Shown here piece by piece: positions 14,892 through 62,021 of a stretch of DNA of 62,021 nucleotides. This DNA comes from a virus (Duplodnaviria; Caudoviricetes). The notes under the pieces are model-generated. The model saw only the letters and a list, made by a program, of their open reading frames with translations. It searched no databases and was not told the origin of the DNA. Numbering within the stretch: the stretch's first letter is position 1; every line of letters starts with the position of its first letter. The stretch is taken from the IMG/VR virus record IMGVR_UViG_3300012665_000376, positions 1 to 62,021 of that record; one strand, given 5' to 3'. A program made the position numbers and the translations under genes.

Positions 14892-17800
14892 TTATCTTTC
14901 TCTTAAAACACCTTTGTTTTCGTAAATTTTCTTATAATACATCATTGTCATTGGATTAGCAATGCCCATTATTTTTAAATCACGCATCACTTGTTCGTTT
15001 TCTAATACGTTAAAATTAGGGAATGACGCGTATAGAACTTTAGCTCTTGATTCATCAGATGTTGCACCAAATGCAATAGCTCCATATCTGAATTTATTAC
15101 TTGGGATTGCTAAATAAGTTTCCTCAGTTAATGCCTTATAATAGTTTGCCGCATATTTCTTGTCTCCAATATCAGATATAGAAGTAATGTAACTAACAGC
15201 TTCTTTCATAGGAGTTTTATCCTCAGCCATTTTCTGTAGGTCATACTTAATTTCTTGTCTGAATGAACCTACATTTTTGTTTTCTTGCTCAACAATATCC
15301 TGTACATTAATGTACTTTCCATTATTCTTTTTATCAGTAGTACCCGTTGCTCTACCTAATAAATCCGAAACTGGCTGTACTGCAAAGTCTCCTATTTTCT
15401 GACCAGCATATTTAGACTGTTCTTTTGGAGATAATCCACCTAATGACTGAGGTATTAAGTTCACAAACTTATCCATCATAGTATATGCTAAACCAACTGC
15501 AATGTTAGTGTGCGGATTAGTTATCATATCTTCAACAGCTTTTTGTGTTCTAGCAGGAGATACCTCTAACCCAACGTTGTCAGCAACCTTAGCCATCATC
15601 TTGTAGAACCCAAGAACATTCTCATTAAATCTTCCCTCGTCTTTAGTGTTGACAACTTCGTAATTAACATCTCTTCCTGTCCAAAGATTCTTGTTTGCCG
15701 CATACTCATAAATAGCCTTAGCAGATGGAGGCATCATTGTAGTAAACTTAGGCAACATCATAGCCAAATCTTCTTGGAAAGTTTTAGCTAATACGCCATT
15801 CAATTTTTCAGGAGTTTTAGCTATGTTCTTGTAATACATACCCTCTCCCATATTTTGGAATAAATTCCATATTGATTTAACTCCAGTTGGCACAGGTATT
15901 TCTGCATACGAATGAGTTCCATCCGAGTTCTTAAATGGAGAGAACACCAATAGCTTACCTGCTTTTGCTTGTTGTAAGTCATCGTTATCCCATTCATCTC
16001 CAGCGACCATCATATTATATATTGTAAGCGCCATTACACCAAGCCCTGTCTGTGCAATCTTATTAAAGAATTTAACAGGATTGTTTTTAATGTACTCAAC
16101 AGTTATTCTTGTGCCTTGAAAAGCTACGTTAAGGTATGGGATAAAACCATCTAAGTATTTAGTCAATAGACCACCTCTGTGGAAATCCATTGCACCTCTA
16201 GCTTCATAAGCAGCCCTAGACTTAATCTTCTCCATAGCCGCCGCATCTGGAGTTTGACCATTGTTTTCGCTTTCGAATTTAGCTATCTCTCTTTCTTTGA
16301 CAGACTTATAAGCATTTAACTTAGAAGCTAATTCCGATATGTTACCAAGGTAAGATAGAGCTTCTTCAACCTTATTTAGAATGGGTCTATTTGAAGTTCC
16401 CTCCTGAGACTGGGTCATCATTAAACCACCTGCCTGTGCGTATTCTAGCGCTAATGCTGAAGTAGCCTTGTCCTTTGCAATAAGAGACTTAGCAGTTGAT
16501 AACGTACCAGAAATAGCTTTATTATACTCTCCAGCTACGCCAACGCTTCCACCATTATACACATCATTAAAGTGAATCTGAGAAAGTAAGTCAATTGGAA
16601 TATTGGTAATAAAGAATCCAATGTTCATACCTGTTGCAAGCTGTCTCAAAATTTGCGCTCCTGACGCTTTAGCTAATATTTTGTATGCTGAATGGTTTGT
16701 ATTCCATTTCTCTACATCTGAGAACTCATTAGCTAAATCTGACTGTAATTGAAATCCTTGGTTAACTCCATTAACCTTAAATATCATATTAGTAAATCCG
16801 TATGACGATTCCTTGAACTTTAATGAACCATCTTTATTAGTTGCAATAGAACCGTCCGCGCGTCTTTCGTAGTTTAATTCTTTAAAGAATGGCAAGTTCT
16901 TTCCAGCACCCTCTTGGAAGAAAGTTTGTAAAGCTTTGTTAGTCATTACCTTATGTTCTGTAGCCACCATTGCTGAGTGCAATAGTTTCATAGAATCAGT
17001 CTCTAGGTAATCTAAACTTCCATCTTTAATACCCTTTATTTCATCTTGATTTAAAGTTACACCTCTATTAGCATATAGATTAGCATTGGTATCGCCAAAC
17101 ATATGTTCAAAGAATTTACGCGGGCTATAGTTATAGTCCTTGTACATATCATATTCCTCTTTAGTAATAAGTCCGTTATCGTACTTATACTTTAAAAGGT
17201 CAGAGAATGTACTGAAATACTTATTTGACTTATCGTATATCTTGTTATACGCCTCATCTCCTAAAGATTTCTTGTAGTCAGCCAATGTTTTTTCAGCCGA
17301 CTCTTTGTTAGTAGTTACATCCTTTCCATTTACATCTGTATGGGTAGGGTGGTCTGGTCTATTTTTAGTAGCCGCTTTCTCTTTTAAATCTTTAATTTCT
17401 TTGTCAATAGCCGATATTTCCTCTTTTGTTTCAGCAATCTTTCTAAGGTCTAATAAATCCTTGATTTTCTGAAGAAGTAAGTTTCTTTGATTGTCAAAGT
17501 TTGCATCAATAGCAGCTACACGGCGCAAGAAGACAAAGTCATCTAATCTAGCCACCTCTTCTTTTGTCAAATCAGAATAGATGTCCTTAAATATTCCTTG
17601 GAACTTAAAGTTTGCTAATGGAGCTGCCCCCGCTTTATTAACTAAAGCGTATAAAGAGAACTCCATATCAGCATCTGCTAAAGCGCGTCTAATGTTTATT
17701 TGTCTGTCAAATAGCCATTTCTGTACTTCAGTTGGAAACTTCTTAATATCAAACTTTCTTTTCTGTTCAAAAGCTTTCTTGGACGCCTGAGTTGCGTTAG

Positions 17801-20800
17801 GTACTTTTTGTTGTTTTAATCCACCTCTTGTGGATTCCCCGACAACACCTTGTCCAGCTCCATCAACTCCTCTTCCGACATCTCCTTGTTGAGTATTTTC
17901 TGTACCCCCTTCTTGAACAGGTTTTGCCCAAGTTGGGTCTTTGATTCCTCCTGCAAATTCATCGATTTGTTTTCTTGCTTCATCTATTGATATTTTATTG
18001 TTTGCGTAATTATTCCAAATACTCTCTACTTTAGCTACGTTTTGTTTGCTGTTTTTAAACGTTGCTGTAAATAATCCACGAATAGCTTCCCAAGTAATAC
18101 TTTGCACTTGTCTTGGCAATAAATCAGTTTCTTTTGCGGCTAACTTATAGCCTTCTGCATAAGCGTAATATAATCCTTTTATTCCCAATGGAGAAGAATT
18201 CTTAGTCCCTGTGCCAAAATTTTGCCCTACTTGTTTTGAATTTCCAGACAACGGCATTAATAATGCAGCAGCAATCGCGTGAGTATCCATTGTAACATCT
18301 TGGTCTTTAGACATAGGGTCTATGATGTTATTATAGAAATTCCTAATCTTGTGCATTTCGCCAAGTGACCTAGTAATATTCTCTTGGCTACCATCTAAAT
18401 AGATAGCGTTAGCTTTGTTAATCTCTGTATAAGAACCCCAGGCTACCTTAGCTTTTTCTCCATCATTTTTTACGGCAAGACCCATTACCTGACCATCTGG
18501 ACGTAGTACATCATAATCTTTTGTTACATTAACTTCGTTCCAAAGACGTGTATAATATCCTTTCATTTCATCAGGGACATCATACATTCTTTTTCCCGTT
18601 AACTCTGCTATTGAATCAATTACTCTGTTTGAGTTATCTAGATTTTTATTATATTTATCATTAGCAGAACGCAATTTTTCTTTACTATCTTTTAAAACTT
18701 GTTTAGCAGCAGTAATATCTTGTTTTGTGGATTCTTTATTTTCAGAAACTAGTTCAACATTCTTTTTAGCCGCTTCGTATGCTTTCTTTGATTTATTAAC
18801 TTCTCTTTTTACTGGAGTTAATCCTTCTTTAGCAATTAATTTCTGCTTTTCAACCATCTCCTTACTCATTACTGGATTAGCTTCGTGAGCCATTAATACC
18901 ATTTCAGCCAACCTCACGTTTTGATACCAGTCTTTTTGAGGAGACAATGAAGCCATAACACCTGCAACTTGTTCTTTAGTTATCCCATATTTTTTAGATA
19001 AATCTTGGGCTAAAATATTTGCACCATCATACCACAAAGTAGAAACCTCTTTGTAGTTTTCATTAAAGTTCTCCATTAAATACTCAAGATTGTTAGCAAC
19101 TTCTCTTGAAAAAACATCATATACTTCTTGAGCATCTTCAATTGTTGTAATGTTGCTTTTATTAACAATGCCTGAAACTAAAGGATAGTTTGCTATGATA
19201 TTTGAGTTGGCAATAAATAATTCTGGAGCATTAGCTTTCACATATTCTAATGATAAATCTTCTGCCTCTTGAACTACTTTTTTACCATTCTTGGTAGATA
19301 CAGATAATCCCTTAGAGACTCTATTGCCTGCTCTTGATAATGTTCTAATTTCCTTTACATCAATGTTTTTAACAGATGTAATTTTTTGCTGCCTAAATCC
19401 TGTAACCTCTTGATTTGCTTCAGTATTCCCAATTAATTTCTCTATTCTAGATACATCAATACTTTTACCCGACTGTATTGACCTAGCTAAGTCAGTAAAG
19501 AATTTCATATCTTCTTGAGCAGACGAAGATTCTGGGAATAATTTATCAGCCAATTTCATTAATGGCTGGTTATTCATTTTCTTCGCTACTTTTTGAATGA
19601 ACTCTTTAATAGCCATTCTTATTTTGTGCAATCTACTAGGAGTAAACTTAACGTCTCCTTTCGTTAACATACCCGCTAATTCAGACAAGAATTCTTCTGC
19701 CTGCATATCTACGCCATCTTCTTCGTATTGACCTGCAAATTCTTGCAATCTAGAACGTTGTGGCTCAGGTATAAATGGTAGGATTCTCTCTACCATATTA
19801 GCAAATTCTTTAGGGTTTTGCTTAGCTAAAGGCAATAATACCGCGTGAGTTACTTCGTGTGGAAGTGTTGTCCCAGTTAAGGTATTAATGATATTACCCG
19901 CCGAATCTTTAGATGACTTATTAATGTGTACGTTGCCCGTAGCTGGGTTAAATAATCCTCCAGCACCCAAAGATACCTCGATAGCTCTTTCGCGGCTTAC
20001 ACCCTCGTTAACCAAGCCCTCAATCATAGAGTCTTCGTTATCGTAGATAATCATCTTAGAGTTTGGAGACACTGAGGTTAATGCCTTGTATGCATTAGAT
20101 ATAATAGTCTTGACTTGTGCTCCTAATGTATTAGATATAGGGTTATCTGTGCGTTGTTCAAATTCACTATCAACCTCTACTGCTTGACGCGGCGTTAAAT
20201 TAGTCGTAGGCTCAACTTGTTGAGTTGTAGTTGTTTGCTGTGTTGTAGGACTAACAGTTGGCGCTTTTCTGCCTGCCAATTTAGTCGTCCAATCAAATCC
20301 CATTCCAACGGTTTCTTCTGTAACTGCTTGCTCAAATATTGCATCAGAAACTGTGCCTAATTTGTCTTGCTTAGCTTTTAAAGCTATGTCTAATGCTAAG
20401 TCAGGATTATTAACCTCAAACGTCGTATTGTTTCTGTTGTCTCTTAATACAACACCTGATACATTACCATCCTCATCAAATTTGCTCTCCACAAATTCAG
20501 TAAAGTTTGTATCTATGACAATAGGATTTTTAGCTGCCTTATTTTGTTCGTCTCGTATTTTAGCTTTTTTATTGAAAGAAACTTTAGGCTTCAATATAAC
20601 TTTTCCCGACGGAGTAACTTCTGCAACCGTGTTGGTTACTGTTCCATCTTCTGAAGTGACTGTGACTGCATTTCCTGCCCATCTGCTGTTTGCAACTGAT
20701 TGGGCTGCTCCTTGCCTTTCAACTCTTCCAATTTCTCTAGAACTTTTAGTTGTTTGTCTTTCGGTAACCTCTGTAAAATCAGTTTTTGTTGCAAATTCAT

Positions 20801-22583
20801 ATCCGTCTAATTTTTGTATTTGTTCAAATATAGGGTCATTAATTAACGCCTTTTGTTCAGGAGTTAAGGTCTCATCTTTTTCTACTCTATCAGCAATTGT
20901 ATATAACTCATCAGCTGATTTATCTAATTCATTCTCGTCAATTTCTTTGTTATTATTTAATCTTTCTTGAATAGGCGCTAGTGCATTATTGACACTATTC
21001 ATCATATCAGAAGTTTCATAATATTGACTAGCTACTTCTATATCTTTTTCTGACTGAGTCTTACGAGCTTCAGCAGCAGCTTTTGCTCCTGATGCATCAA
21101 ACTCATCAAATATAGCCTTTCTCTTATTATCTAAGTCTTCTATCTTTAAATCAAAAGTAGTAACCAAGTCTTCGTTATTAGTCATTGACTTAGCGTACTC
21201 ATAATCTTCTATTTTGTTAGTAAGTTTTAATACCTCAACACGTTCTTCAACAGGAAGATTTGCAACTAGTTTATAGTTGTCATTTGCAAGTCCAAAGTTG
21301 TATTTGTAAATATCATCTATTTTCTCTTTAGCAACTTGTTTCGCTTCTGTTGGAATTGATGGGTCATCAACAACTTCTTGTAATTTAGATATTTGTCTCT
21401 CTTGTTCTTTTGTTAAGTTCTGCTTAGATACAGAAGCTCCAATCGAACTAATTGAACCTCCCATAAATCCACCAATAAGCATAGAGTCATAAAAATCATT
21501 TATAGCTCTATCATAATCTTTTTGGTCTAATTTGCCGCTGTCAATAGTATCAACAACAAATCCTGCCGCACTTGCAATACCCTCTTCTAAGGATTCTTGC
21601 GCCATACCTTTAAGACCTTGTTTTACAACACCTCCCCAAGTACGAATAATTGCATCTTTCGCTTCTTTTCTACCTTGACTTTTGATTAGGTTTTTGATTG
21701 CGCTTTTTGCTCCATCATATGTGATATCTGCAATAGCTGCACCTGTACTACGAAGAGTCTTTAAGTCAGCGTCAAAAATCATCTCAGTTAAACCCTCGAC
21801 AACCCCTTTTAGTCCTGACTGAATTACATCTATTCCAGATACATCTTTGTCTTTCTCGTATTCTTCTTGAGCTGCTTGTGTTGAGCCTATTGTAGATGCC
21901 GCCCCAAATCTAGCTAATTTTGTTTCCCCAGCGGCTACAGTTGATATTAATTGAGGTATTTGTTTTACAGACTCAATTCCTAGTTTTAAGAATCCTTGAC
22001 CTGCATCCTCTCGCAATAATTCATTAACAGGCTTTCTTACGTTTTCCTGCTTAAGACCCATTGCTACTGCGCTTTTTTCAAGGTCAGGAGCTATAGAAGC
22101 ATTGTATGTAGACGCAAATTCAGACAACCATTGTGCAGGCGCTTCTACCACGTCTAAAATTGGCTTTATATCCTTTTGGTCTTCAGGATGCAAAGCATTC
22201 TTAATTGGGTTTGTAACTAATTTAGTTAATAATGTAGCTCCACCAGATACAGTGGATATAAGCATTTTCTGCAAAGAAAGTTGGAATGTTTCATTAAGAC
22301 CGCCCCAAAATCCATCCTCTTCCTGTTTCGTAGCCGTAGAAGGCTTCGCCGAAGATGATACCGTATCGACTTTTTTTTTAAATAAATTAATATCGTTGCT
22401 CTCTAATCCTGAGATATCTACTGGCACAACAACGTCTCCAAATTGCATCCCAAATCCGTTACCCTTTTTGCTTTCAATTAACTTGTTAGCATCAAAAGAA
22501 ACAGGGGTTACCATATTGGTTTCTTCGTCTAATATGCCATATCCATTACCACGAGAACTTTTAATTAATCTATTCTTAGCCAT
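14892..22583 (-). CDS. giant internal virion/ejection protein, polyvalent (zincin metallopeptidase, HhH-glycosylase-like domain, LPD38-like C-terminus)
   Basis: HEVTH...AEEFLSE zincin; SLSPQKDW...KIRNFY...VTMDTHA...QVQSITW domain; MDFHRGG...PYLNVAFQG; third gene of the ejectosome block after the tail muzzle. Confidence 0.75.
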   Translation of the reverse strand: MAKNRLIKSSRGNGYGILDEETNMVTPVSFDANKLIESKKGNGFGMQFGDVVVPVDISGLESNDINLFKKKVDTVSSSAKPSTATKQEEDGFWGGLNETFQLSLQKMLISTVSGGATLLTKLVTNPIKNALHPEDQKDIKPILDVVEAPAQWLSEFASTYNASIAPDLEKSAVAMGLKQENVRKPVNELLREDAGQGFLKLGIESVKQIPQLISTVAAGETKLARFGAASTIGSTQAAQEEYEKDKDVSGIDVIQSGLKGVVEGLTEMIFDADLKTLRSTGAAIADITYDGAKSAIKNLIKSQGRKEAKDAIIRTWGGVVKQGLKGMAQESLEEGIASAAGFVVDTIDSGKLDQKDYDRAINDFYDSMLIGGFMGGSISSIGASVSKQNLTKEQERQISKLQEVVDDPSIPTEAKQVAKEKIDDIYKYNFGLANDNYKLVANLPVEERVEVLKLTNKIEDYEYAKSMTNNEDLVTTFDLKIEDLDNKRKAIFDEFDASGAKAAAEARKTQSEKDIEVASQYYETSDMMNSVNNALAPIQERLNNNKEIDENELDKSADELYTIADRVEKDETLTPEQKALINDPIFEQIQKLDGYEFATKTDFTEVTERQTTKSSREIGRVERQGAAQSVANSRWAGNAVTVTSEDGTVTNTVAEVTPSGKVILKPKVSFNKKAKIRDEQNKAAKNPIVIDTNFTEFVESKFDEDGNVSGVVLRDNRNNTTFEVNNPDLALDIALKAKQDKLGTVSDAIFEQAVTEETVGMGFDWTTKLAGRKAPTVSPTTQQTTTTQQVEPTTNLTPRQAVEVDSEFEQRTDNPISNTLGAQVKTIISNAYKALTSVSPNSKMIIYDNEDSMIEGLVNEGVSRERAIEVSLGAGGLFNPATGNVHINKSSKDSAGNIINTLTGTTLPHEVTHAVLLPLAKQNPKEFANMVERILPFIPEPQRSRLQEFAGQYEEDGVDMQAEEFLSELAGMLTKGDVKFTPSRLHKIRMAIKEFIQKVAKKMNNQPLMKLADKLFPESSSAQEDMKFFTDLARSIQSGKSIDVSRIEKLIGNTEANQEVTGFRQQKITSVKNIDVKEIRTLSRAGNRVSKGLSVSTKNGKKVVQEAEDLSLEYVKANAPELFIANSNIIANYPLVSGIVNKSNITTIEDAQEVYDVFSREVANNLEYLMENFNENYKEVSTLWYDGANILAQDLSKKYGITKEQVAGVMASLSPQKDWYQNVRLAEMVLMAHEANPVMSKEMVEKQKLIAKEGLTPVKREVNKSKKAYEAAKKNVELVSENKESTKQDITAAKQVLKDSKEKLRSANDKYNKNLDNSNRVIDSIAELTGKRMYDVPDEMKGYYTRLWNEVNVTKDYDVLRPDGQVMGLAVKNDGEKAKVAWGSYTEINKANAIYLDGSQENITRSLGEMHKIRNFYNNIIDPMSKDQDVTMDTHAIAAALLMPLSGNSKQVGQNFGTGTKNSSPLGIKGLYYAYAEGYKLAAKETDLLPRQVQSITWEAIRGLFTATFKNSKQNVAKVESIWNNYANNKISIDEARKQIDEFAGGIKDPTWAKPVQEGGTENTQQGDVGRGVDGAGQGVVGESTRGGLKQQKVPNATQASKKAFEQKRKFDIKKFPTEVQKWLFDRQINIRRALADADMEFSLYALVNKAGAAPLANFKFQGIFKDIYSDLTKEEVARLDDFVFLRRVAAIDANFDNQRNLLLQKIKDLLDLRKIAETKEEISAIDKEIKDLKEKAATKNRPDHPTHTDVNGKDVTTNKESAEKTLADYKKSLGDEAYNKIYDKSNKYFSTFSDLLKYKYDNGLITKEEYDMYKDYNYSPRKFFEHMFGDTNANLYANRGVTLNQDEIKGIKDGSLDYLETDSMKLLHSAMVATEHKVMTNKALQTFFQEGAGKNLPFFKELNYERRADGSIATNKDGSLKFKESSYGFTNMIFKVNGVNQGFQLQSDLANEFSDVEKWNTNHSAYKILAKASGAQILRQLATGMNIGFFITNIPIDLLSQIHFNDVYNGGSVGVAGEYNKAISGTLSTAKSLIAKDKATSALALEYAQAGGLMMTQSQEGTSNRPILNKVEEALSYLGNISELASKLNAYKSVKEREIAKFESENNGQTPDAAAMEKIKSRAAYEARGAMDFHRGGLLTKYLDGFIPYLNVAFQGTRITVEYIKNNPVKFFNKIAQTGLGVMALTIYNMMVAGDEWDNDDLQQAKAGKLLVFSPFKNSDGTHSYAEIPVPTGVKSIWNLFQNMGEGMYYKNIAKTPEKLNGVLAKTFQEDLAMMLPKFTTMMPPSAKAIYEYAANKNLWTGRDVNYEVVNTKDEGRFNENVLGFYKMMAKVADNVGLEVSPARTQKAVEDMITNPHTNIAVGLAYTMMDKFVNLIPQSLGGLSPKEQSKYAGQKIGDFAVQPVSDLLGRATGTTDKKNNGKYINVQDIVEQENKNVGSFRQEIKYDLQKMAEDKTPMKEAVSYITSISDIGDKKYAANYYKALTEETYLAIPSNKFRYGAIAFGATSDESRAKVLYASFPNFNVLENEQVMRDLKIMGIANPMTMMYYKKIYENKGVLRER

Positions 22584-33806: not shown

Positions 33807-34160
33807 TTAATTAATGATTAAAGGTTTTTTAATTGTTACGCCTGATACGTCCGTCAAAGTTAAGTCATATAACCCGCGAGACAATGTATCTAAATGAATA
33901 GTCTTAATAGTAGCCGCCGATGATGCTGTAAAGCCAACTGTTTTTAATGGCTCTGTGCTACCAAATTTATACACCTGAATAGAGTATTTAGCTCCAGCAG
34001 TTGTGTTTGCTACAATAGTAGCTTGCTTACTTTCCACTACTAAGCTAGTAATGTCTGTTGATTCAGGATTCGAACCAAGGCTTGTTTCCTTTTCTAACGT
34101 CTCGATGTCTTGGCAAGCTGCCAGCATCACTATCAACAAAAATGCTACCGTCTTCTTCAT
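33807..34160 (-). CDS. lipoprotein with T9SS C-terminal-domain-like end
   Basis: lipobox LAAC; C-terminus LSRGLYDLTLTDVSGVTIKKPLIIN resembles a Por/T9SS CTD. Confidence 0.6.
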   Translation of the reverse strand: MKKTVAFLLIVMLAACQDIETLEKETSLGSNPESTDITSLVVESKQATIVANTTAGAKYSIQVYKFGSTEPLKTVGFTASSAATIKTIHLDTLSRGLYDLTLTDVSGVTIKKPLIIN

Positions 34161-57496: not shown

Positions 57497-57522
57497 TAAA
57501 ATGTTTGTTTGGTTTGTAAAGG

Positions 57523-57553
57523 TAAAGATAGATAGATAAGGTCATATATACAA
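57523..57553 (-). promoter_or_regulatory. promoter candidate for the late operon
   Basis: - strand TTG (57553-57551), 20-nt spacer, TATCTTTA (one mismatch to TAnnTTTG). Confidence 0.5.
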
Positions 57554-58091
57554 TAATTACTATCATATGCTTCGTCGGTCAATTTGCTCTAAACGCAGTT
57601 TTTGCACCGTGTGGTTGTAGATTCAGGGTTATATGTGATTGGGCGTGGGTCGCGCGCGAGAACGACAAACGACTTTTGGCGATGGGGTGGGGTCGCATTT
57701 CAGAATCCGAAATCCAAAAATTAGGTCAATGTATTACTGTGATACAATAAACAATTTCCTAATGTATCCTCCTGATACAATGGATCTATATCGGCATTAT
57801 ATTACCGATGTCATCTTCAGCAAGAGAGAAACAATACTCTACTAGTCAAGTAGGGAAATATTTGTACAGAATAATGCCCTCTAGGATAATGTGAGGGGGT
57901 AAATGACCTAGGCGGACTACCCGCCACGCATCCACACCCATAGAAAACACCCCATTTTACTAGCATTCGTTTTAAGGGGTCATATCTTCGATTTAAGACA
58001 CTTTACCCCCTAGAATGTCCATTCTATCCACCTAGAGCGAGATAATGCCTTAGACGCAAAATAGGGGTAATTTTGATGTTAAAAATTCTGC

Positions 58092-58220
58092 TATACGCGT
58101 GTGCGTGTGTGATGTGCGCCTACGCGTGTGTGCTCGCGTGTATGTGCGTGTGTGTGCATACCTGCGCGACGTGTGTACGCTTGCGCGTGTCGTGATGTGC
58201 GCGCAATACGCGTGTGTGCG
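58092..58220. repeat. alternating purine-pyrimidine (GT/GC) tract
   Basis: ~130 nt of mostly (GT)n/(GC)n; TACGCGTGTG three times and GTGATGTGCGC twice. Confidence 0.85.
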
Positions 58221-58299
58221 GTTTCAGTATCTTTTAAAGGGGTTTCTCTTAGAATAGTACAAAAACAGTATATTTTCGTTGTATTATTCTAAGAAAATG

Positions 58300-58332
58300 G
58301 GGATTTCGTCTACACATTTCGGGATTTCGTCT
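58300..58332. repeat. direct repeat upstream of the early promoter
   Basis: GGGATTTCGTCT at 58300-58311 and 58321-58332 (21-bp period). Confidence 0.7.
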
Positions 58333-58361
58333 CATATCAGGGTTATTTTAAGGGGGTGCTA

Positions 58362-58391
58362 TTGTAAATCAAAAAGTTTAGGCAATCTTTG
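58362..58391 (+). promoter_or_regulatory. early promoter candidate
   Basis: TTG (58362-58364), 19-nt spacer, AATCTTTG (one mismatch); the structured RNA begins about 7 nt downstream. Confidence 0.6.
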
Positions 58392-58398
58392 TAATGTC

Positions 58399-58863
58399 AT
58401 CAGCGGGGAAACGTCCTCAAAGGCAAAATATCCACTTTATGTGGGGGTAAAGAGAACACCCTAAATTCTCCCTGTCCCGAAAGAGGGGCATTGCAAGGCA
58501 AGTATACTGAACGCACGGATTGGCTCAGTAAGTAGAACGCCCCACATAGCACCATTACGCTAGGCACTTGGATGAGCAGTTTATCGCTCCAGTGTATAAA
58601 CCTCCCGACCTGATACATACGATGGTCGACTGCGGTAGTCAGCTAGGTTAAACCCGATGCCCCCGCGATATGTGAGCCTCTACTTGCATCCCTAATTGAC
58701 GGAAGGTTAAAAGTTCTGCGCGGTAGAGGGAAGATTTTATGCAAGGTTCTGTGGACTGAACCTGCCCGTCAGCAAAGGCGGTTACAAAAACGCCACTCAT
58801 TCAAGGCTTATGAATACGGCTAGGCAATGGATTGCCAGTGCGGTTCGATTCCGCACCTAGTCG
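58399..58863 (+). ncRNA. large structured non-coding RNA or 5' leader (unidentified)
   Basis: GC-enriched, no + strand ORF, more than 10 nested stems, a pseudoknot and a 3' tRNA-like element. Confidence 0.7.
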
Positions 58864-58882
58864 CTAACTTAAACACACACAA

Positions 58883-59122
58883 ATGAAAGCAACAAAAATT
58901 ACAAGATATTCGCAAGGCGAATACATTGCTGATGTAGAGAATTTAGGGCAAATGTGGGGATTTGATAGATACGAAATTACATTCTATCTAGACAATTGGT
59001 GCGACTTAAAGCTAACTACTAGTATGATTGTAGAGACTACAGAATATTCGTCTGTTACGAATCACATCAAGCAATACTTTAACGAACAAAAAGAAATTAA
59101 ATCAACTATCCTTTCGGTGTAG
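58883..59122 (+). CDS. hypothetical early protein
   Basis: 79 aa; ACACACACAA leader. Confidence 0.7.
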   Translation: MKATKITRYSQGEYIADVENLGQMWGFDRYEITFYLDNWCDLKLTTSMIVETTEYSSVTNHIKQYFNEQKEIKSTILSV

Positions 59123-59131
59123 GTAACCGAA
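59108..59131 (+). promoter_or_regulatory. early-gene hairpin/pseudoknot motif, copy 1
   Basis: ATCCTTTCGGTGTAGGTAACCGAA; TCGGT/ACCGA stem; ATG 10 nt downstream. Confidence 0.8.
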
Positions 59132-59140
59132 TCAAATCTT

Positions 59141-59422
59141 ATGAAATTCAATGTATTAGCAGAAGCAATGTTACAAATCAAGGAGTTAGGCTTAGAGGGT
59201 CAATCATTCACGATGAGTCAGAAAGTATATGAGGACAAGAAAGACGAAAAGTATGAGGTTATAATCATCGAGGTAAGATTTGACCCCGAGTTAATGAAGA
59301 AGTTATCCGCTATTAGCAATCACACTAGCTTCTTCCCATCTACCAATGGCAAAGAGCGCTACTTAGGATTCAATACGATGCGCTCTAGCGAGGGCGACAG
59401 ACTTGACTTCCATCTAGTGTAA
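59141..59422 (+). CDS. hypothetical early protein
   Basis: 93 aa; stop codon lies in hammerhead stem I. Confidence 0.7.
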   Translation: MKFNVLAEAMLQIKELGLEGQSFTMSQKVYEDKKDEKYEVIIIEVRFDPELMKKLSAISNHTSFFPSTNGKERYLGFNTMRSSEGDRLDFHLV

Positions 59423-59465
59423 CTGATGAGTCCTAATGGACGAAACCCCTACGGGGGTCTTACAC
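59417..59465 (+). ncRNA. type I hammerhead ribozyme
   Basis: stem I GTGTAA/TTACAC; core CTGATGA; stem II GTCC-TAAT-GGAC; GAAA; stem III CCCC-TACG-GGGG; GTC cleavage triplet (cut after 59459). Confidence 0.95.
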
Positions 59466-59468
59466 ATT

Positions 59469-59491
59469 ATCCTTGCGGTGTAGGTAACCGC
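59469..59491 (+). promoter_or_regulatory. early-gene hairpin/pseudoknot motif, copy 2
   Basis: ATCCTTGCGGTGTAGGTAACCGC; ATG 10 nt downstream. Confidence 0.8.
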
Positions 59492-59501
59492 GACACACAT
59501 T

Positions 59502-59912
59502 ATGAGAAAATTATTTAATCAAGCAATCGAATTGACTCAAGAAGAAGCAATTAACCACCCACGTCGCGAGTATAACGCCCGCATTTGGAAGCAAGAAATC
59601 GAGCGCTATGCCAAATACAACGGCAAGTTCTACGATTTAGGCAAGGGCAAAAGCGAGTATTCTCAAGGCGAAGTAGGAGTTGTATACGAAATCGAGGGCG
59701 TTCGCCAGTTTAGAGTGGTAGAATATTCGGCAAGCCTTAGCGCTTACGATGGTGTAGGTCGGGTATTCGTATCAGAAGATGGCGTTCATTTTGAGAAATT
59801 TAGAAACGCCGATGGCGATGAAGGTTATATATCCTACCGCAAGAATCTACCATTTTTGCGTAGAATGTGCAATAATTTCCCATCTTTTAACGTAGGCTCT
59901 CCTAGCCTTTAA
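59502..59912 (+). CDS. hypothetical early protein
   Basis: 136-aa ORF. Confidence 0.75.
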   Translation: MRKLFNQAIELTQEEAINHPRREYNARIWKQEIERYAKYNGKFYDLGKGKSEYSQGEVGVVYEIEGVRQFRVVEYSASLSAYDGVGRVFVSEDGVHFEKFRNADGDEGYISYRKNLPFLRRMCNNFPSFNVGSPSL

Positions 59913-59916
59913 GACT

Positions 59917-60003
59917 ATGAAATACTTAATCCCATTCTTCTTCGCGCTTGCTATCTATATGGTAGCGAGCGCCTTAATTCAAATCGCTCAAATACTATCC
60001 TAA
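59917..60003 (+). CDS. small hydrophobic peptide (28 aa; not in the ORF track)
   Basis: MKYLIPFFFALAIYMVASALIQIAQILS. Confidence 0.5.
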   Translation: MKYLIPFFFALAIYMVASALIQIAQILS

Positions 60004-60006
60004 TAT

Positions 60007-60129
60007 ATGAATACCTTAAACAAAGTAATCGTCTTCTTCCTAGGGGAGGAGGCGTCACAAGACAAGGGCGAACTAATCACGGCTCTAGCAATCGCAACCT
60101 TATGCGCATTCCTTTTACCATTACTATAA
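60007..60129 (+). CDS. small membrane peptide (40 aa; not in the ORF track)
   Basis: MNTLNKVIVFFLGEEASQDKGELITALAIATLCAFLLPLL. Confidence 0.5.
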   Translation: MNTLNKVIVFFLGEEASQDKGELITALAIATLCAFLLPLL

Positions 60130-60163
60130 TATCCCACTATCAACTTTAACACACACAAATCTT

Positions 60164-61081
60164 ATGGCAACTCAAGCAGAATTAATCGACAATATTAATG
60201 ATACAATTATCGCGGGCTTACAAGCTAAGGGCTTGCAATGGTTCAAGCCTTTCAAGGATAGCACCACCTTACAATGGAACGCTATCAGTTCGTCGGGCAA
60301 ACCATACCGCGGTATTAATCAGTTCATCCTATCAGCTAAGGCTATCGACAAAGGATGGGTTAATAAGTGGTACACCTTTAACCAAGTAAGCAAGCTAGAC
60401 GCTCGCGTTAACAAAGGCGAAAAGTCTACAGACGTTTATCTTTGGAAGGTCAACTTTGCGGTAGAAATTGCGGGCAAAGTTCAATATTTCCCACGCATCG
60501 AAGATATCCCATCGCACCTACAAAAGGGGGCTAAGAAAGCGTTTTACCTACAGACATTCAAGGTGTTTTCAATTTCGCAAACGACTTTGCCCCTAGACAC
60601 TCCCGCGCAACCTATCGAGGTTACAGAATTGGAAGCGGACGCACACGCTGAAGCTATCCTAAAGTCTTGGGCTAAAGAGGTAACATTAAAGCATAGTGGT
60701 CTAGGACGCGCTTACTATTCGCCTAGCGGGGACTACATCCATATGCCCGCTAAGACTACAGACCAATGGAAATCTAACGGGGATTATTACAAGGTATTCT
60801 TTCACGAAGCTATCCATAGCACTGGTCATTCGTCACGCCTTAATCGCCTAGATAAAACGGCAAACTTTGGCTCTAGCGAATACTCTAAGGAAGAATTGGT
60901 AGCAGAACTAGGCGCGCTATATTTAGAGGCTATCACGGGCATTCAGACAATCGTCGACGATGTCAAGAATTCGCAAGCATACATCAACGGATGGATTAGC
61001 AAACTAAAGTCTGACCCTAAGTTGATTATGAGTGCATCTACCAAGGCACACGAAGCAGTAGACTTAATTCTTTCAAAGTAA
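60164..61081 (+). CDS. ardC: ArdC-family antirestriction protein (ssDNA-binding domain plus zincin-like domain)
   Basis: WFKPF...PYRGIN...WYTFNQ...VNKGEK; AYYSP..DYIHMP; HEAIHSTGH..RLNR..YSKEELVAE. Confidence 0.9.
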   Translation: MATQAELIDNINDTIIAGLQAKGLQWFKPFKDSTTLQWNAISSSGKPYRGINQFILSAKAIDKGWVNKWYTFNQVSKLDARVNKGEKSTDVYLWKVNFAVEIAGKVQYFPRIEDIPSHLQKGAKKAFYLQTFKVFSISQTTLPLDTPAQPIEVTELEADAHAEAILKSWAKEVTLKHSGLGRAYYSPSGDYIHMPAKTTDQWKSNGDYYKVFFHEAIHSTGHSSRLNRLDKTANFGSSEYSKEELVAELGALYLEAITGIQTIVDDVKNSQAYINGWISKLKSDPKLIMSASTKAHEAVDLILSK

Positions 61082-61094
61082 TTTCCACTATCAA

Positions 61095-61118
61095 ACCTTG
61101 CGGTGTATAGGTAACCGC
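61095..61118 (+). promoter_or_regulatory. early-gene hairpin/pseudoknot motif, copy 3
   Basis: ACCTTGCGGTGTATAGGTAACCGC; ATG 8 nt downstream. Confidence 0.85.
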
Positions 61119-61126
61119 TCACTATT

Positions 61127-61351
61127 ATGAATAATATCAAAAAATGGTATACTACCGCTTTTGAGTCCGATGAATTGGGCTTAGAAATTAATCCAAATGC
61201 TACCTTTTTAGGTTTGATTGGGAATATTGGAGATGTTTATGAATACGTTGGGGTATCGGACTCTTTAGTAAGAGAAAGGTTATTTGAGCGCGTAGCTGAA
61301 ATAATGGAGTGTACATACGATGAAGTTTATAATCTTTGGATAGAGGCTTAA
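61127..61351 (+). CDS. hypothetical early protein
   Basis: 74 aa; DVYEYVGVSDSLVRERLF. Confidence 0.75.
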   Translation: MNNIKKWYTTAFESDELGLEINPNATFLGLIGNIGDVYEYVGVSDSLVRERLFERVAEIMECTYDEVYNLWIEA

Positions 61352-61363
61352 TTAATAACAATA

Positions 61364-61387
61364 ACCTTGCGGTGTATAGGTAACCGC
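61364..61387 (+). promoter_or_regulatory. early-gene hairpin/pseudoknot motif, copy 4
   Basis: identical 24-mer; ATG 8 nt downstream. Confidence 0.85.
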
Positions 61388-61395
61388 ATAATCTT

Positions 61396-61716
61396 ATGGA
61401 AAATCAATTATTTATATTAAGAACAAAGTATGCAGAAATCATAGAGAAATTTGCGTACGCTGAAGAATTGACTTACTATCATAGCGAATATGACAATGAG
61501 ATAACTATTTATTTCGACAATCTATATCAGATGAGTTTTAAGACTCAAGCATTAATTGATGCAAATGAGCAAGGATATGTTATTCCTTGGAATAAATTCG
61601 ATGACGAGCAAGAGAACATAGAACTTTCGAAGGATTTACCTATGGAAGAATTTAAGAATTGGGTAAGCGAAGAAAGAGAGCGTCAGTATATGATTTACTT
61701 AAACGAAAGAAAATAG
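61396..61716 (+). CDS. hypothetical acidic early protein
   Basis: 106 aa, rich in E/D and aromatic residues. Confidence 0.75.
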   Translation: MENQLFILRTKYAEIIEKFAYAEELTYYHSEYDNEITIYFDNLYQMSFKTQALIDANEQGYVIPWNKFDDEQENIELSKDLPMEEFKNWVSEERERQYMIYLNERK

Positions 61717-61722
61717 CTAATA

Positions 61723-61746
61723 ACCTTGCGGTGTATAGGTAACCGC
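61723..61746 (+). promoter_or_regulatory. early-gene hairpin/pseudoknot motif, copy 5
   Basis: identical 24-mer; ATG at 61756, 9 nt downstream. Confidence 0.85.
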
Positions 61747-61755
61747 ATTAACACT

Positions 61756-61929
61756 ATGAATAATAGATATGTAATCACATTTGGATTTGAAGGAGAAAAC
61801 GGCTTTCAAGTACAAAAATCCAAACCAATCCAAGCTAGTGATGAGCAAGAGGCTTGCCAAATGTTATCTAATCAATTCGAAAATTACGAAGGAATTCCTA
61901 TTGACATCCTTTTAGTAACTAAACAATAA
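61756..61929 (+). CDS. hypothetical early protein
   Basis: ORF 61726..61929; start moved to ATG 61756, downstream of the motif. Confidence 0.7.
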   Translation: MNNRYVITFGFEGENGFQVQKSKPIQASDEQEACQMLSNQFENYEGIPIDILLVTKQ

Positions 61930-61936
61930 TCATTTA

Positions 61937-61960
61937 ACCTTGCGGTGTATAGGTAACCGC
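61937..61960 (+). promoter_or_regulatory. early-gene hairpin/pseudoknot motif, copy 6
   Basis: identical 24-mer; ATG at 61971, 10 nt downstream. Confidence 0.85.
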
Positions 61961-61970
61961 TTACAAACTT

Positions 61971-62021
61971 ATGGAACTTTCAACATTGCATTACGCACAA
62001 AGAAACCTTGACATCATTGCT
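61971..62021 (+). CDS. 5' part of the ORF that continues at position 1
   Basis: ATG follows motif copy 6; open to the end of the window and in frame with 1-87. Confidence 0.7.
   Translation, partial: MELSTLHYAQRNLDIIA

What the first reader, a model, noticed from the sequence alone, without database searches (positions are those of the whole stretch)
59417..59491. Hammerhead ribozyme wedged between a stop codon and the repeated translation-start motif
Seen: a complete type I hammerhead with all core nucleotides and a cUACGg-capped stem III. Its stem I includes the TAA stop of 59141..59422, and cleavage after C59459 would leave a 3' product starting about 10 nt before motif copy 2. Established: hammerheads occur in phage intergenic regions, but their role is mostly unknown. 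Inference: together with the tRNA-like element and the repeated motif, this forms an RNA-based system that cuts the early polycistron into separately controlled mRNAs; ribosomes terminating in stem I could modulate cleavage.
Basis: partly seen in the sequence, partly recalled or inferred. Interest (0 to 1): 0.75.

Follow-up and report, generated by a model that had tools for sequence, protein, structure and literature searches.

The report
Phage intergenic type I hammerhead ribozyme
A genuine self-cutting hammerhead RNA sits between two small early genes of a water phage, most likely cutting a long early message in two; this kind of element has been known in phages since 2011, though here related phages put a tRNA look-alike in the same place.

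Summary
Window 59417-59465 (+) is a complete type I hammerhead. It has every core nucleotide, a 6-bp stem I containing the TAA stop of ORF 59141-59422, a 4-bp stem II, and a 5-bp stem III capped by UACG. Cleavage would follow C59459.

It is not a chance match. None of 300 shuffles gave an equal motif, and it is the best Rfam hit in the window, although its 31.5 bits fall below the gathering score of 34. Six distinct copies in related contigs keep 100% pairing, with compensatory changes in all three stems.

It belongs to a large phage hammerhead family. Among 128 distinct IMG/VR copies, the upstream stop usually lies in or at the ribozyme and the next ATG lies 14-32 nt after the cut.

Upstream of two gene families, relatives carry either this hammerhead or a tRNA-like minihelix. 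That supports a role in RNA processing.

Cleavage, ribosome control and "separate control" of the products remain untested, because no RNA data were available.

This scan has noted intergenic phage hammerheads many times on other DNA. Verdict: a real element and a new member of a known kind, of modest interest.

The parts
59141..59422 (+). Upstream early ORF (93 aa, no family match). Its TAA stop (59420-59422) is the last three bases of the stem I 5' strand.
   Evidence: ORF listings. No Pfam or PHROG hit. The 74%-identical orthologue in L020 is also followed by a hammerhead.
59417..59422 (+). Hammerhead stem I, 5' strand (GUGUAA).
   Evidence: One pair covaries (A-U to G-C) in L095 and L139.
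59423..59429 (+). Catalytic core strand CUGAUGA (C3-A9).
   Evidence: Invariant in relatives except N7 (U or C).
59430..59441 (+). Stem-loop II (GUCC-UAAU-GGAC).
   Evidence: Two of its four pairs show compensatory double changes in relatives.
59442..59444 (+). Core G12 A13 A14.
   Evidence: invariant.
59445..59458 (+). Stem-loop III (A15.1-CCCC-UACG-GGGG-U16.1).
   Evidence: One pair changes C-G to G-C in L020b and L013. Other aquatic contigs carry UUCG- and GCAA-capped versions.
59459..59460 (+). Predicted cleavage site, after C17 (59459). The 3' product would start at U59460 with a 5'-OH.
   Evidence: Position follows from the hammerhead consensus alignment. The cleavage chemistry is established knowledge (recalled) and was not tested here.
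59460..59465 (+). Hammerhead stem I, 3' strand (UUACAC).
59471..59491 (+). Copy 2 of the repeated hairpin motif (CCTTGCGGTG..AGGTAACCGC), 10 nt before the ATG at 59502.
   Evidence: There are six copies in the window. The stem covaries in relatives.
59502..59912 (+). Downstream early ORF (136 aa, no family match).
   Evidence: What lies upstream of its orthologues varies: hammerhead, tRNA-like element or own promoter-like region.
58817..58863 (+). tRNA-like element (acceptor stem plus T arm) at the end of the long non-coding leader. It is the same class of element that replaces the hammerhead in relatives.
   Evidence: ARAGORN and Rfam do not call it.

Best explanation
A functional type I hammerhead ribozyme sits inside the early polycistronic transcript of a roughly 62-kb phage of a Bacteroidota-type host.

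Proposed mechanism:
1. Once RNA polymerase has passed 59465, the 49-nt element folds and cleaves itself after C59459.
2. Because stem I is the open stem, the whole ribozyme body stays on the upstream RNA. That RNA (genes 58883-59122 and 59141-59422) then ends 37 nt after its stop codon in a compact structure closed by a UACG-capped stem III and a 2',3'-cyclic phosphate.
3. The downstream RNA starts with a 5'-OH and only 6 nt of ribozyme. These are followed by 5 nt, the hairpin motif and the AUG of the 136-aa gene.
4. The two halves then have independent ends and, by inference, independent lifetimes and translation.
5. A ribosome terminating at UAA 59420-59422 must unwind stem I. Translation of the upstream gene therefore probably blocks folding while a ribosome is present and drives product release after cutting.

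Shown here: the motif, its conservation and covariation, its placement, and its exchange with tRNA-like elements.
Inferred: cleavage in vivo, the polycistronic precursor, and every consequence for stability or translation.
For: The motif is complete and better than chance.

Close relatives: six distinct copies show 90 of 90 pair cells paired, with double-sided changes in 4 pairs spread over all three stems. Pairing drops to 28-53% when the partners are slid. A seventh copy was read in L296. Model R1 finds one or two copies in 4 of 5 related virus records, always in the early block; the model was built from those same copies.

Stem I is exactly 6 bp in 139 of 148 matches. In 106 of 119 copies that have an upstream ORF, that ORF ends within -13..+4 nt of the core; the window's arrangement is the commonest, 35 of 119. 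The next ATG-ORF starts 14-32 nt after the cut in 73 of 111 copies. This leaves no room for a promoter and fits cutting of a polycistron.

Model R1 gave 156 matches over 85 sources, of which 150 were aligned (140 distinct rows). 99.9% of pair cells are paired and 13 of 15 pairs show double-sided change. That alignment is fitted to the model.

Transcription unit: no intrinsic-terminator-like site on the + strand in 58883-62021. No TAnnTTTG box in any early intergenic spacer (the motif itself is recalled from the literature).

Slot exchange: the 136-aa gene family is preceded by hammerhead plus motif (window, L296), by a tRNA-like minihelix (L037, L120, L109) or by its own promoter-like region after a terminator-like hairpin (L297). 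The DUF932 gene family is preceded by hammerhead plus motif (L013), by a tRNA-like minihelix (L120, L109) or by neither (L037).

Literature: Perreault et al. 2011 (PMC3088659, passages read) showed clustered prophage hammerheads cleaving about 2-kb polycistronic transcripts in vitro and proposed this role.
Against: - No RNA evidence of any kind is available for this phage.
- The Rfam score is below the curated cut-off (31.5 against 34).
- In its 126-nt context the minimum-energy fold does not form stems I and II; only the centroid keeps stems II and III (z -1.19).
- I found no Watson-Crick loop II-flank pseudoknot signal in the family: observed mean 2.40 against 2.49 in permutations. The tertiary contact needed for fast cutting at low Mg2+ is therefore unidentified, and the element could be a slow 'minimal' hammerhead.
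- Only 1 of 6 motif copies in the window has a ribozyme, and one relative (G003) has none.
- The hammerhead stays with its upstream gene when the downstream gene changes (window against L020). This fits a 3'-end role at least as well as a 5'-end role.
- The family geometry was measured on copies selected by a pattern that itself closes two reading frames, and with ATG-only ORFs of at least 40 aa.
Confidence: 0.62

Rival explanations
1. The hammerhead is mainly a 3'-end module of the upstream gene cassette (motif - ORF - ribozyme). It replaces a terminator by trimming read-through RNA. It leaves a nuclease-resistant 3' end: the structured ribozyme body plus a 2',3'-cyclic phosphate. The effect on the downstream gene would be incidental.
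For: - The 93-aa gene and its hammerhead travel together in the window and in L020, while the downstream gene differs.
- In type I topology the whole ribozyme stays on the upstream fragment (topology reasoning).
- Across the family the stop codon is embedded in the ribozyme (57 of 119 at 0 or +4).
- Stem III is usually capped by very stable tetraloops.
- There are no intrinsic terminators in the early block.
Against: - The distance to the next ATG is equally tight in the family.
- The element upstream of the 136-aa and DUF932 gene families is a processing element in most contexts whatever the upstream gene is.
- This rival does not exclude the main reading, because one cut makes both ends.
Confidence: 0.2
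2. The hammerhead is an insulator for the downstream hairpin motif and start region. By removing upstream RNA it lets the motif fold the same way regardless of the preceding gene, as synthetic ribozyme insulators do.
For: - In all 7 close-family copies the ribozyme is followed within 10-16 nt of the cut by the motif.
- tRNA-like elements occupy the same position before the motif in L020, L037, L120 and L136.
Against: - 5 of the 6 motif copies in the window have no processing element upstream.
- In the wider family only 1 of 148 hammerheads is followed by a motif-like hairpin.
- tRNA-like elements also precede genes that have no motif (L109, L120).
Confidence: 0.1
3. The hammerhead is a selfish or recombination-joint sequence. 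On this reading it is a conserved boundary used for shuffling early-gene cassettes, with no role in expression.
For: - The early regions are mosaics of small cassettes bounded by conserved sequences.
- The hammerhead copies themselves look mosaic: the window shares stem II with L020b and stem III with L020a.
Against: Compensatory changes keep every helix paired, and the catalytic core is invariant across 140 distinct family members. That is selection on the RNA fold, not merely on DNA identity.
Confidence: 0.05
4. It is a chance or decayed hammerhead-like sequence that does not cut.
For: - It scores below the Rfam gathering score.
- No tertiary contact was identified.
- Perreault et al. report some inactive hammerhead-like sequences (PMC3088659, passages read).
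Against: - 0 of 300 shuffles gave an equal motif.
- All core positions match the consensus.
- Covariation is present.
- The element is kept at the same place in relatives of 51-90% protein identity.
Confidence: 0.03

Closest known systems
Clustered and intergenic hammerhead ribozymes of prophages and phages (Perreault et al. 2011, PLoS Comput Biol, PMC3088659; passages read)
   Same: - Canonical core, placed between co-directional small phage genes near anti-restriction-type genes. An ArdC-like gene lies at 60164-61081; the paper reports ardA next to hammerheads.
- The proposed role is the same: cutting long phage transcripts into gene-length mRNAs.
- A close relative (G002) has two copies flanking one gene.
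   Different: - The window holds a single copy.
- The host type is Bacteroidota-like, with no Shine-Dalgarno use.
- The ribozyme is followed by a conserved hairpin motif.
- The same slot is filled by tRNA-like minihelices in relatives. I did not see this in the passages read or in the listings.
Rfam RF00163, Hammerhead ribozyme type I
   Same: Full-length alignment to the 45-position model, stem I open, all conserved positions present.
   Different: The score is 31.5 bits, below the gathering score of 34. Stem-loop III is longer than in the model consensus.
Halovirus HF2 hammerhead upstream of an early helicase gene (as described in PMC3088659, passage read)
   Same: The ribozyme lies just upstream of the start codon of a gene in an early polycistronic transcript. 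There, the mapped 5' end lies within 3 nt of the cut site.
   Different: That is an archaeal virus with a variant core. No end mapping exists for the phage studied here.
tRNA punctuation and RNase P/RNase Z processing of tRNA-like elements in long transcripts, such as the mitochondrial punctuation model and mascRNA of MALAT1 (recalled, not read here)
   Same: It works alike. A compact RNA element between functional units defines where the precursor is cut, and here relatives use such an element in the very slot the hammerhead occupies.
   Different: The hammerhead needs no host enzyme. It leaves 5'-OH and cyclic-phosphate ends rather than 5'-phosphate and 3'-OH ends.
Self-cleaving ribozymes in 5' UTRs of RNA viruses that enable translation initiation (Lopez-Galiano et al. 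2026, PMC13725137; abstract and outline read)
   Same: A type I hammerhead lies upstream of a viral ORF, with self-cleavage linked to translation of the downstream gene.
   Different: Those are eukaryotic RNA viruses using cap-independent translation. Nothing comparable has been tested for bacteria or for this phage.

Membership tests
Hammerhead ribozyme, type I (class defined by core and three-way junction) | Conserved core: C3 U4 G5 A6 N7 G8 A9, G12 A13 A14, A15.1-U16.1 pair, H17 at the cleavage site | tested here: met
   All are present at 59423-59429, 59442-59445 and 59458-59459. The numbering scheme is recalled.
Hammerhead ribozyme, type I (class defined by core and three-way junction) | Three helices around the core, with stems II and III closed by loops and stem I open (type I) | tested here: met
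   6, 4 and 5 bp. This is the minimum-energy fold of the isolated 49 nt. Pairs adjacent to the core are standard.
Hammerhead ribozyme, type I (class defined by core and three-way junction) | Helices maintained by compensatory change in homologues | tested here: met
   Six close copies: 4 pairs with double-sided change, 100% paired. 140 distinct family members: 13 of 15 pairs with double-sided change, 99.9% paired (that alignment is fitted to the model).
Hammerhead ribozyme, type I (class defined by core and three-way junction) | Tertiary contact between stem I and loop II, which supports fast cleavage at physiological Mg2+ | tested here: inconclusive
   No Watson-Crick loop II-flank signal above permutation. 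However, the family has a fixed 6-bp stem I and a dominant 5-nt loop II (108 of 163), which is compatible with a non-canonical contact.
Hammerhead ribozyme, type I (class defined by core and three-way junction) | Site-specific self-cleavage | not testable with these tools
   No RNA data were available. This needs an in vitro or in vivo assay.
Rfam RF00163 (curated model, a database threshold rather than a biological feature) | Bit score at or above the gathering score of 34 | tested here: not met
   31.5 bits. I therefore file the element under the ribozyme class by its defining features, not as an Rfam-threshold member.
Intercistronic phage and prophage hammerheads (Perreault et al. 2011) | Located in a short spacer between co-directional phage genes | tested here: met
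   The stop at 59420-59422 lies inside stem I. The next ATG is at 59502. The record is a virus contig with terminase, portal and tail genes.
Intercistronic phage and prophage hammerheads (Perreault et al. 2011) | Several copies flanking single genes or short gene blocks | tested here: not met
   The window has one copy. Relative G002 has two copies 335 nt apart flanking an 82-aa gene. Clustering is frequent in that paper but is not required for a copy to belong.

The most novel reading that the evidence does not exclude
Early operons of this phage group may be 'punctuated' by interchangeable RNA cutting modules: a self-cleaving hammerhead or a tRNA-like minihelix cut by host RNase P/Z. Evolution would swap these freely at the same gene junctions. 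Their purpose would be to give particular early genes (the 136-aa family, the DUF932 family) their own RNA 5' end in a host that does not use Shine-Dalgarno pairing. The ribosome stopping inside stem I would act as the release or timing device. That would make ribozyme and tRNA-mimic functional equivalents in a natural bacterial-virus system.
Probability: 0.22. Interest if true: 0.6.

Novelty: new member of a known kind. Interest (0 to 1): 0.36.

Why it matters
The biological role of bacterial and phage hammerheads is still largely inferred.

This case adds a clean comparative argument. At two different gene junctions, relatives carry a hammerhead, a tRNA-like RNase P/Z substrate or, for one gene, an own promoter. 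This points to 'making an RNA end here' as the selected function.

It also gives family-wide numbers for the stop-codon-in-ribozyme and short-leader geometry. These make ribosome-ribozyme interplay testable with simple reporters.

As a single element it is ordinary. The class, the phage setting and the proposed role have been in print since 2011, and this scan has met many such copies.

Tried and rejected
- RNA evidence: the look-up of sequencing runs listed no RNA holder. The four DNA runs laid are contigs and can show no RNA ends. They only showed more hammerhead variants.
- The phages collection gave no DNA match for 57500-62021.
- ARAGORN found no tRNA or tmRNA.
- Rfam found nothing for the long leader 58250-58900 at E up to 1.
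- Apart from the hammerhead, Rfam gave only two weak matches in the whole window, read as chance.
- The PDB sequence search of the 2563-aa protein found nothing.
- Loop II-flank pseudoknot: the window has a 4-nt complement (UAAU with AUUA at 59466-59469). It is not kept in relatives and shows no family-wide signal, so I rejected it as a conserved tertiary contact.
- Motif as a promoter of a phage RNA polymerase: I found no RNA polymerase. The giant virion protein looks like a polyvalent protein with LPD-type domains. The idea was left open rather than excluded.
- Sigma-70-type promoter scan of the early block: 12 sites against 12.5 expected. This is uninformative for a Bacteroidota-type host.
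- The T-loop match at 34066-34075 (- strand) lies inside a lipoprotein-like ORF and was dismissed.
- Exact searches with the 15-nt motif core and with the combined hammerhead-motif pattern in IMG/VR mostly returned chance hits. Only L020 and L037 carried more than one motif copy. L013 and L095, each a single-match locus, proved to be relatives only through the hammerhead finder.
- A search for more orthologues of the 136-aa protein gave three proteins.
- Supplementary files of papers were not opened. The supplementary figures of PMC3088659 may show similar phage type I copies.

Full report
**The element.** The window is a 62,021-base IMG/VR virus record, linear and about 97% complete. It carries terminase, portal, tail-fibre and DnaB-like genes. 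At 59417-59465 on the + strand the sequence reads as follows:
- GUGUAA (stem I 5' strand)
- CUGAUGA (core)
- GUCC-UAAU-GGAC (stem-loop II)
- GAA (core)
- A-CCCC-UACG-GGGG-U (stem-loop III)
- C (position 17)
- UUACAC (stem I 3' strand)

This is a complete type I hammerhead with stem I open. The TAA stop of ORF 59141-59422 forms the last three bases of the stem I 5' strand. Cleavage would follow C59459. The 3' product would begin 11 nt before the CCTT of motif copy 2 (59471-59491) and 42 nt before the ATG at 59502.

**Chance.**
- Rfam's type I model aligns end to end at 31.5 bits. The E-value is 3.4e-6 on 301 nt, 7.1e-4 on the whole window, where it is the best of 4227 families, and 1.6e-7 per genome, with 0 of 14 control genomes matching.
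- This score is under the gathering score of 34, so the default scan is blank.
- A script that demands the core plus three helices found 1 site in the window. In 300 dinucleotide shuffles, 0 contained a site with stems of 6/4/5 bp and 2 contained a site with stems of 4/3/3 bp.
- Alone, the 49 nt fold into the hammerhead secondary structure as the minimum-energy structure (-17.6 kcal/mol, z -2.87).
- Within 126 nt of context the minimum-energy fold is a different one, and only stems II and III survive in the centroid. Nearest-neighbour energies do not model the hammerhead core, so I treat this as a caution, not a refutation.

**Close relatives.**
- Protein and pattern searches brought in four related virus records and several metagenome contigs.
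- Six distinct hammerhead copies come from the window, two in L020, and one each in L013, L095 and L139. They align without trouble.
- All 90 pair cells are standard pairs. Four pairs change on both sides: one in stem I, two in stem II and one in stem III. Sliding the partners drops pairing to 28-53%.
- With only six related sequences, the count of covarying pairs alone is not beyond shuffles (56 of 500). The covariation score and the paired fraction are (0 of 500).
- A seventh copy in L296 has the same layout, with C at N7.
- A model built from the six copies finds 1, 1, 2, 0 and 1 copies in the five records, all in the early block.
- It finds one copy in the 43 metagenome loci that were fetched through the hairpin motif.

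**The wider family.**
These hold 148 matches and 128 distinct sequences.
- Stem I is exactly 6 bp in 139 of 148 matches.
- Among the 128 distinct copies, 119 have a same-strand ATG-ORF of at least 40 aa ending within 400 nt upstream. The stop positions are as follows:

| Position of the upstream stop | Copies (of 119) |
|---|---|
| Last three bases of stem I, as in the window | 35 |
| The UGA inside CUGAUGA | 22 |
| Overlaps the first stem I base | 19 |
| 0-7 nt before stem I | 30 |

- In total, 106 of 119 lie within -13..+4 nt of the core.
- Of the 111 copies with a downstream ORF within 400 nt, 73 have the ATG 14-32 nt after the cut. Seventy-three of the 128 are tight on both sides.
- The pattern itself closes two reading frames, so part of the stop result is forced. 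The lack of any spacer between coding sequence and ribozyme is not forced.
- The model gave 156 matches over 85 sources, often several per locus. The 150 aligned matches (140 distinct rows) are 99.9% paired, with double-sided change at 13 of 15 pairs (the alignment is fitted to the model).
- Contigs from four aquatic DNA runs carry further variants with the same stem I and core but other stem III sequences, capped by UUCG or GCAA loops.
- The window's copy is therefore an ordinary member of a large phage hammerhead family.

**Host and transcription unit.**
- The genome has 38% G+C. None of about 40 gene starts has a Shine-Dalgarno sequence. Several late genes have a TAnnTTTG box some 20-30 nt upstream. 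That box is the Bacteroidota promoter element as I recall it.
- In the early block there is no such box in any intergenic spacer between 58883 and 62021. There is also no terminator-like site on the + strand there.
- The giant 2563-aa virion protein looks like a polyvalent protein with LPD-type domains, not an RNA polymerase.
- One long host-made early transcript, running from upstream of the structured leader (58.3-58.8 kb), is therefore the simplest reading. It is an inference.

**Exchange with tRNA-like elements.** The early regions are mosaics of small cassettes.
- The 136-aa gene downstream of the hammerhead has orthologues in L037 and L109 (90% identity), L120 (53%), L296 (51%) and, partially, L297 (34%).
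- What lies immediately upstream of that gene:

| Contig | Element upstream of the 136-aa gene |
|---|---|
| Window, L296 | Hammerhead plus motif |
| L037 | 44-nt tRNA-like minihelix plus motif (probably also L136, where the gene is cut off by the contig end) |
| L120 | Terminal tRNA-like element of the long leader, with the motif |
| L109 | Terminal tRNA-like element of the long leader, without the motif |
| L297 | Terminator-like hairpin and a TAnnTTTG box |

- A second family, a 309/310-aa DUF932 protein (84-99% identity among contigs), is preceded by hammerhead plus motif in L013, by a tRNA-like minihelix in L120 and L109, and by neither in L037.
- The acceptor stems of the minihelices covary (AATCTAG/CTAGATT against AACCTAG/CTAGGTT).
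- Two unrelated devices that both create RNA ends alternate at the same junctions. This is the strongest argument here that end formation is the selected function.
- The sample is small: seven contexts for one gene family and four for the other, from related phages.

**Mechanism and rivals.**
- In type I topology the ribozyme body stays on the upstream fragment. That fragment would end 37 nt past its stop codon in a compact fold with a 2',3'-cyclic phosphate.
- The downstream fragment keeps six ribozyme nucleotides and a 5'-OH.
- A ribosome at the UAA covers stem I and the core. Folding therefore needs a ribosome-free moment, and after cutting the next terminating ribosome would pull the 6-bp stem I apart. 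These steps are inference from established ribosome footprints and hammerhead chemistry.
- The hammerhead stays with its upstream gene when the downstream gene differs (window against L020). A 3'-end role is therefore as likely as a 5'-end role, and the two are not exclusive.
- An insulator role for the motif is weakened because 5 of 6 motif copies lack any processing element. In addition, only 1 of 148 family copies is followed by such a hairpin.
- A purely selfish or recombinational role is weakened by the covariation.

**Comparison with what is known.**
- Perreault et al. 2011 (PMC3088659; passages read) described hundreds of bacterial hammerheads near prophage genes.
- They reported clusters flanking single genes and cleavage of about 2-kb polycistronic transcripts in vitro and in E. 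coli.
- They noted a link with ardA and a halovirus copy whose cut site matches a mapped 5' end.
- They proposed processing of long phage transcripts.
- The present element fits that description. An ArdC-like gene lies 700 nt downstream.
- My four literature searches (listings and abstract starts only, apart from the passages named above) showed no paper on hammerhead/tRNA-like exchange in phages. I did not read widely enough to claim it is unpublished.
- This scan has 343 notes with these words in at least 319 genomes. They include what looks like the two-copy relative.

**Verdict.** This is a real ribozyme motif under selection and a new member of a known kind. The modest added value is the slot exchange with tRNA-like elements and the family-wide placement statistics. 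Cleavage, ribosome coupling and any regulatory consequence remain to be tested.

Noticed in passing
window 59110-59130, 59471-59491, 61096-61118, 61365-61387, 61724-61746, 61938-61960; also L013, L296, L270: The repeated hairpin motif contains both strands of the lower part of 16S rRNA helix 45, in swapped order. AGGTAACCG matches 9 of 9 bases, and CCT(T)GCGGT matches with one extra base. The comparison is with the E. coli rrsH 3' end read. My rough post-hoc chance estimate is about 1 in 1000. Against a strict sequence mimic, the stem covaries in relatives: TTGGT/ACCAA in L013 and TCCGT/ACGGA in L296.
   Followed up: partly
L271, L273, L274, L277 (genome contigs); about 18 of 43 metagenome loci L104-L146: The motif in its usual setting (A-rich upstream, ATG 8-12 nt downstream) occurs in many unrelated environmental contigs ahead of small unknown ORFs. 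Among the 24 stretches from species-representative genomes, only 4 show that setting. By their record titles all 4 are Bacteroidales-type; the other 20 look like chance hits. This suggests a signal specific to mobile elements of Bacteroidota.
   Followed up: partly
L133 (1695-nt metagenome contig), four motif copies: In L133 three of the four motif copies are followed by a conserved CCCAATTT stretch, and for two copies the ATG comes only roughly 30 nt later, behind a Shine-Dalgarno-like sequence. Two copies lie 87 nt apart with no ORF between them. This does not fit a pure 'translation-start' role for the motif and remains unexplained.
   Followed up: no
window 59120-59122 within 59110-59130: The TAG stop of the first early ORF (58883-59122) lies in the loop of motif copy 1. 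A terminating ribosome would therefore sit on the motif of the next gene.
   Followed up: no
window 60164-61081; L013 7427-8359; L109 4606-5535: The same position in the early block holds either an ArdC-like gene (ArdcN plus zincin-like peptidase domains: window, L020) or a DUF932 gene (L013, L037, L109, L120). These look like alternative early cassettes, possibly for anti-defence.
   Followed up: partly
L073 3492-3551 and L100 5907-5966 (IMG/VR contigs 2939679117_000002 and _000006): An unrelated phage pair has a longer type I hammerhead-like element (4-bp stem I, long stems II and III) directly before GTAACCGC and an ATG with a Shine-Dalgarno-like sequence. It was picked up by chance with the combined pattern.
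   Followed up: no
window 14892-22583 (-): The 2563-aa virion-block protein matches DUF7178 and LPD38 and resembles 'large polyvalent protein' clusters of phages. No polymerase signal was found.
   Followed up: partly
window 59415-59447, run X2: One lake-water contig of 4835 nt at depth 169 carries a hammerhead with the same stem I, core and stem II but a longer stem III with an internal loop. Related ribozymes are therefore abundant in that sample.
   Followed up: no
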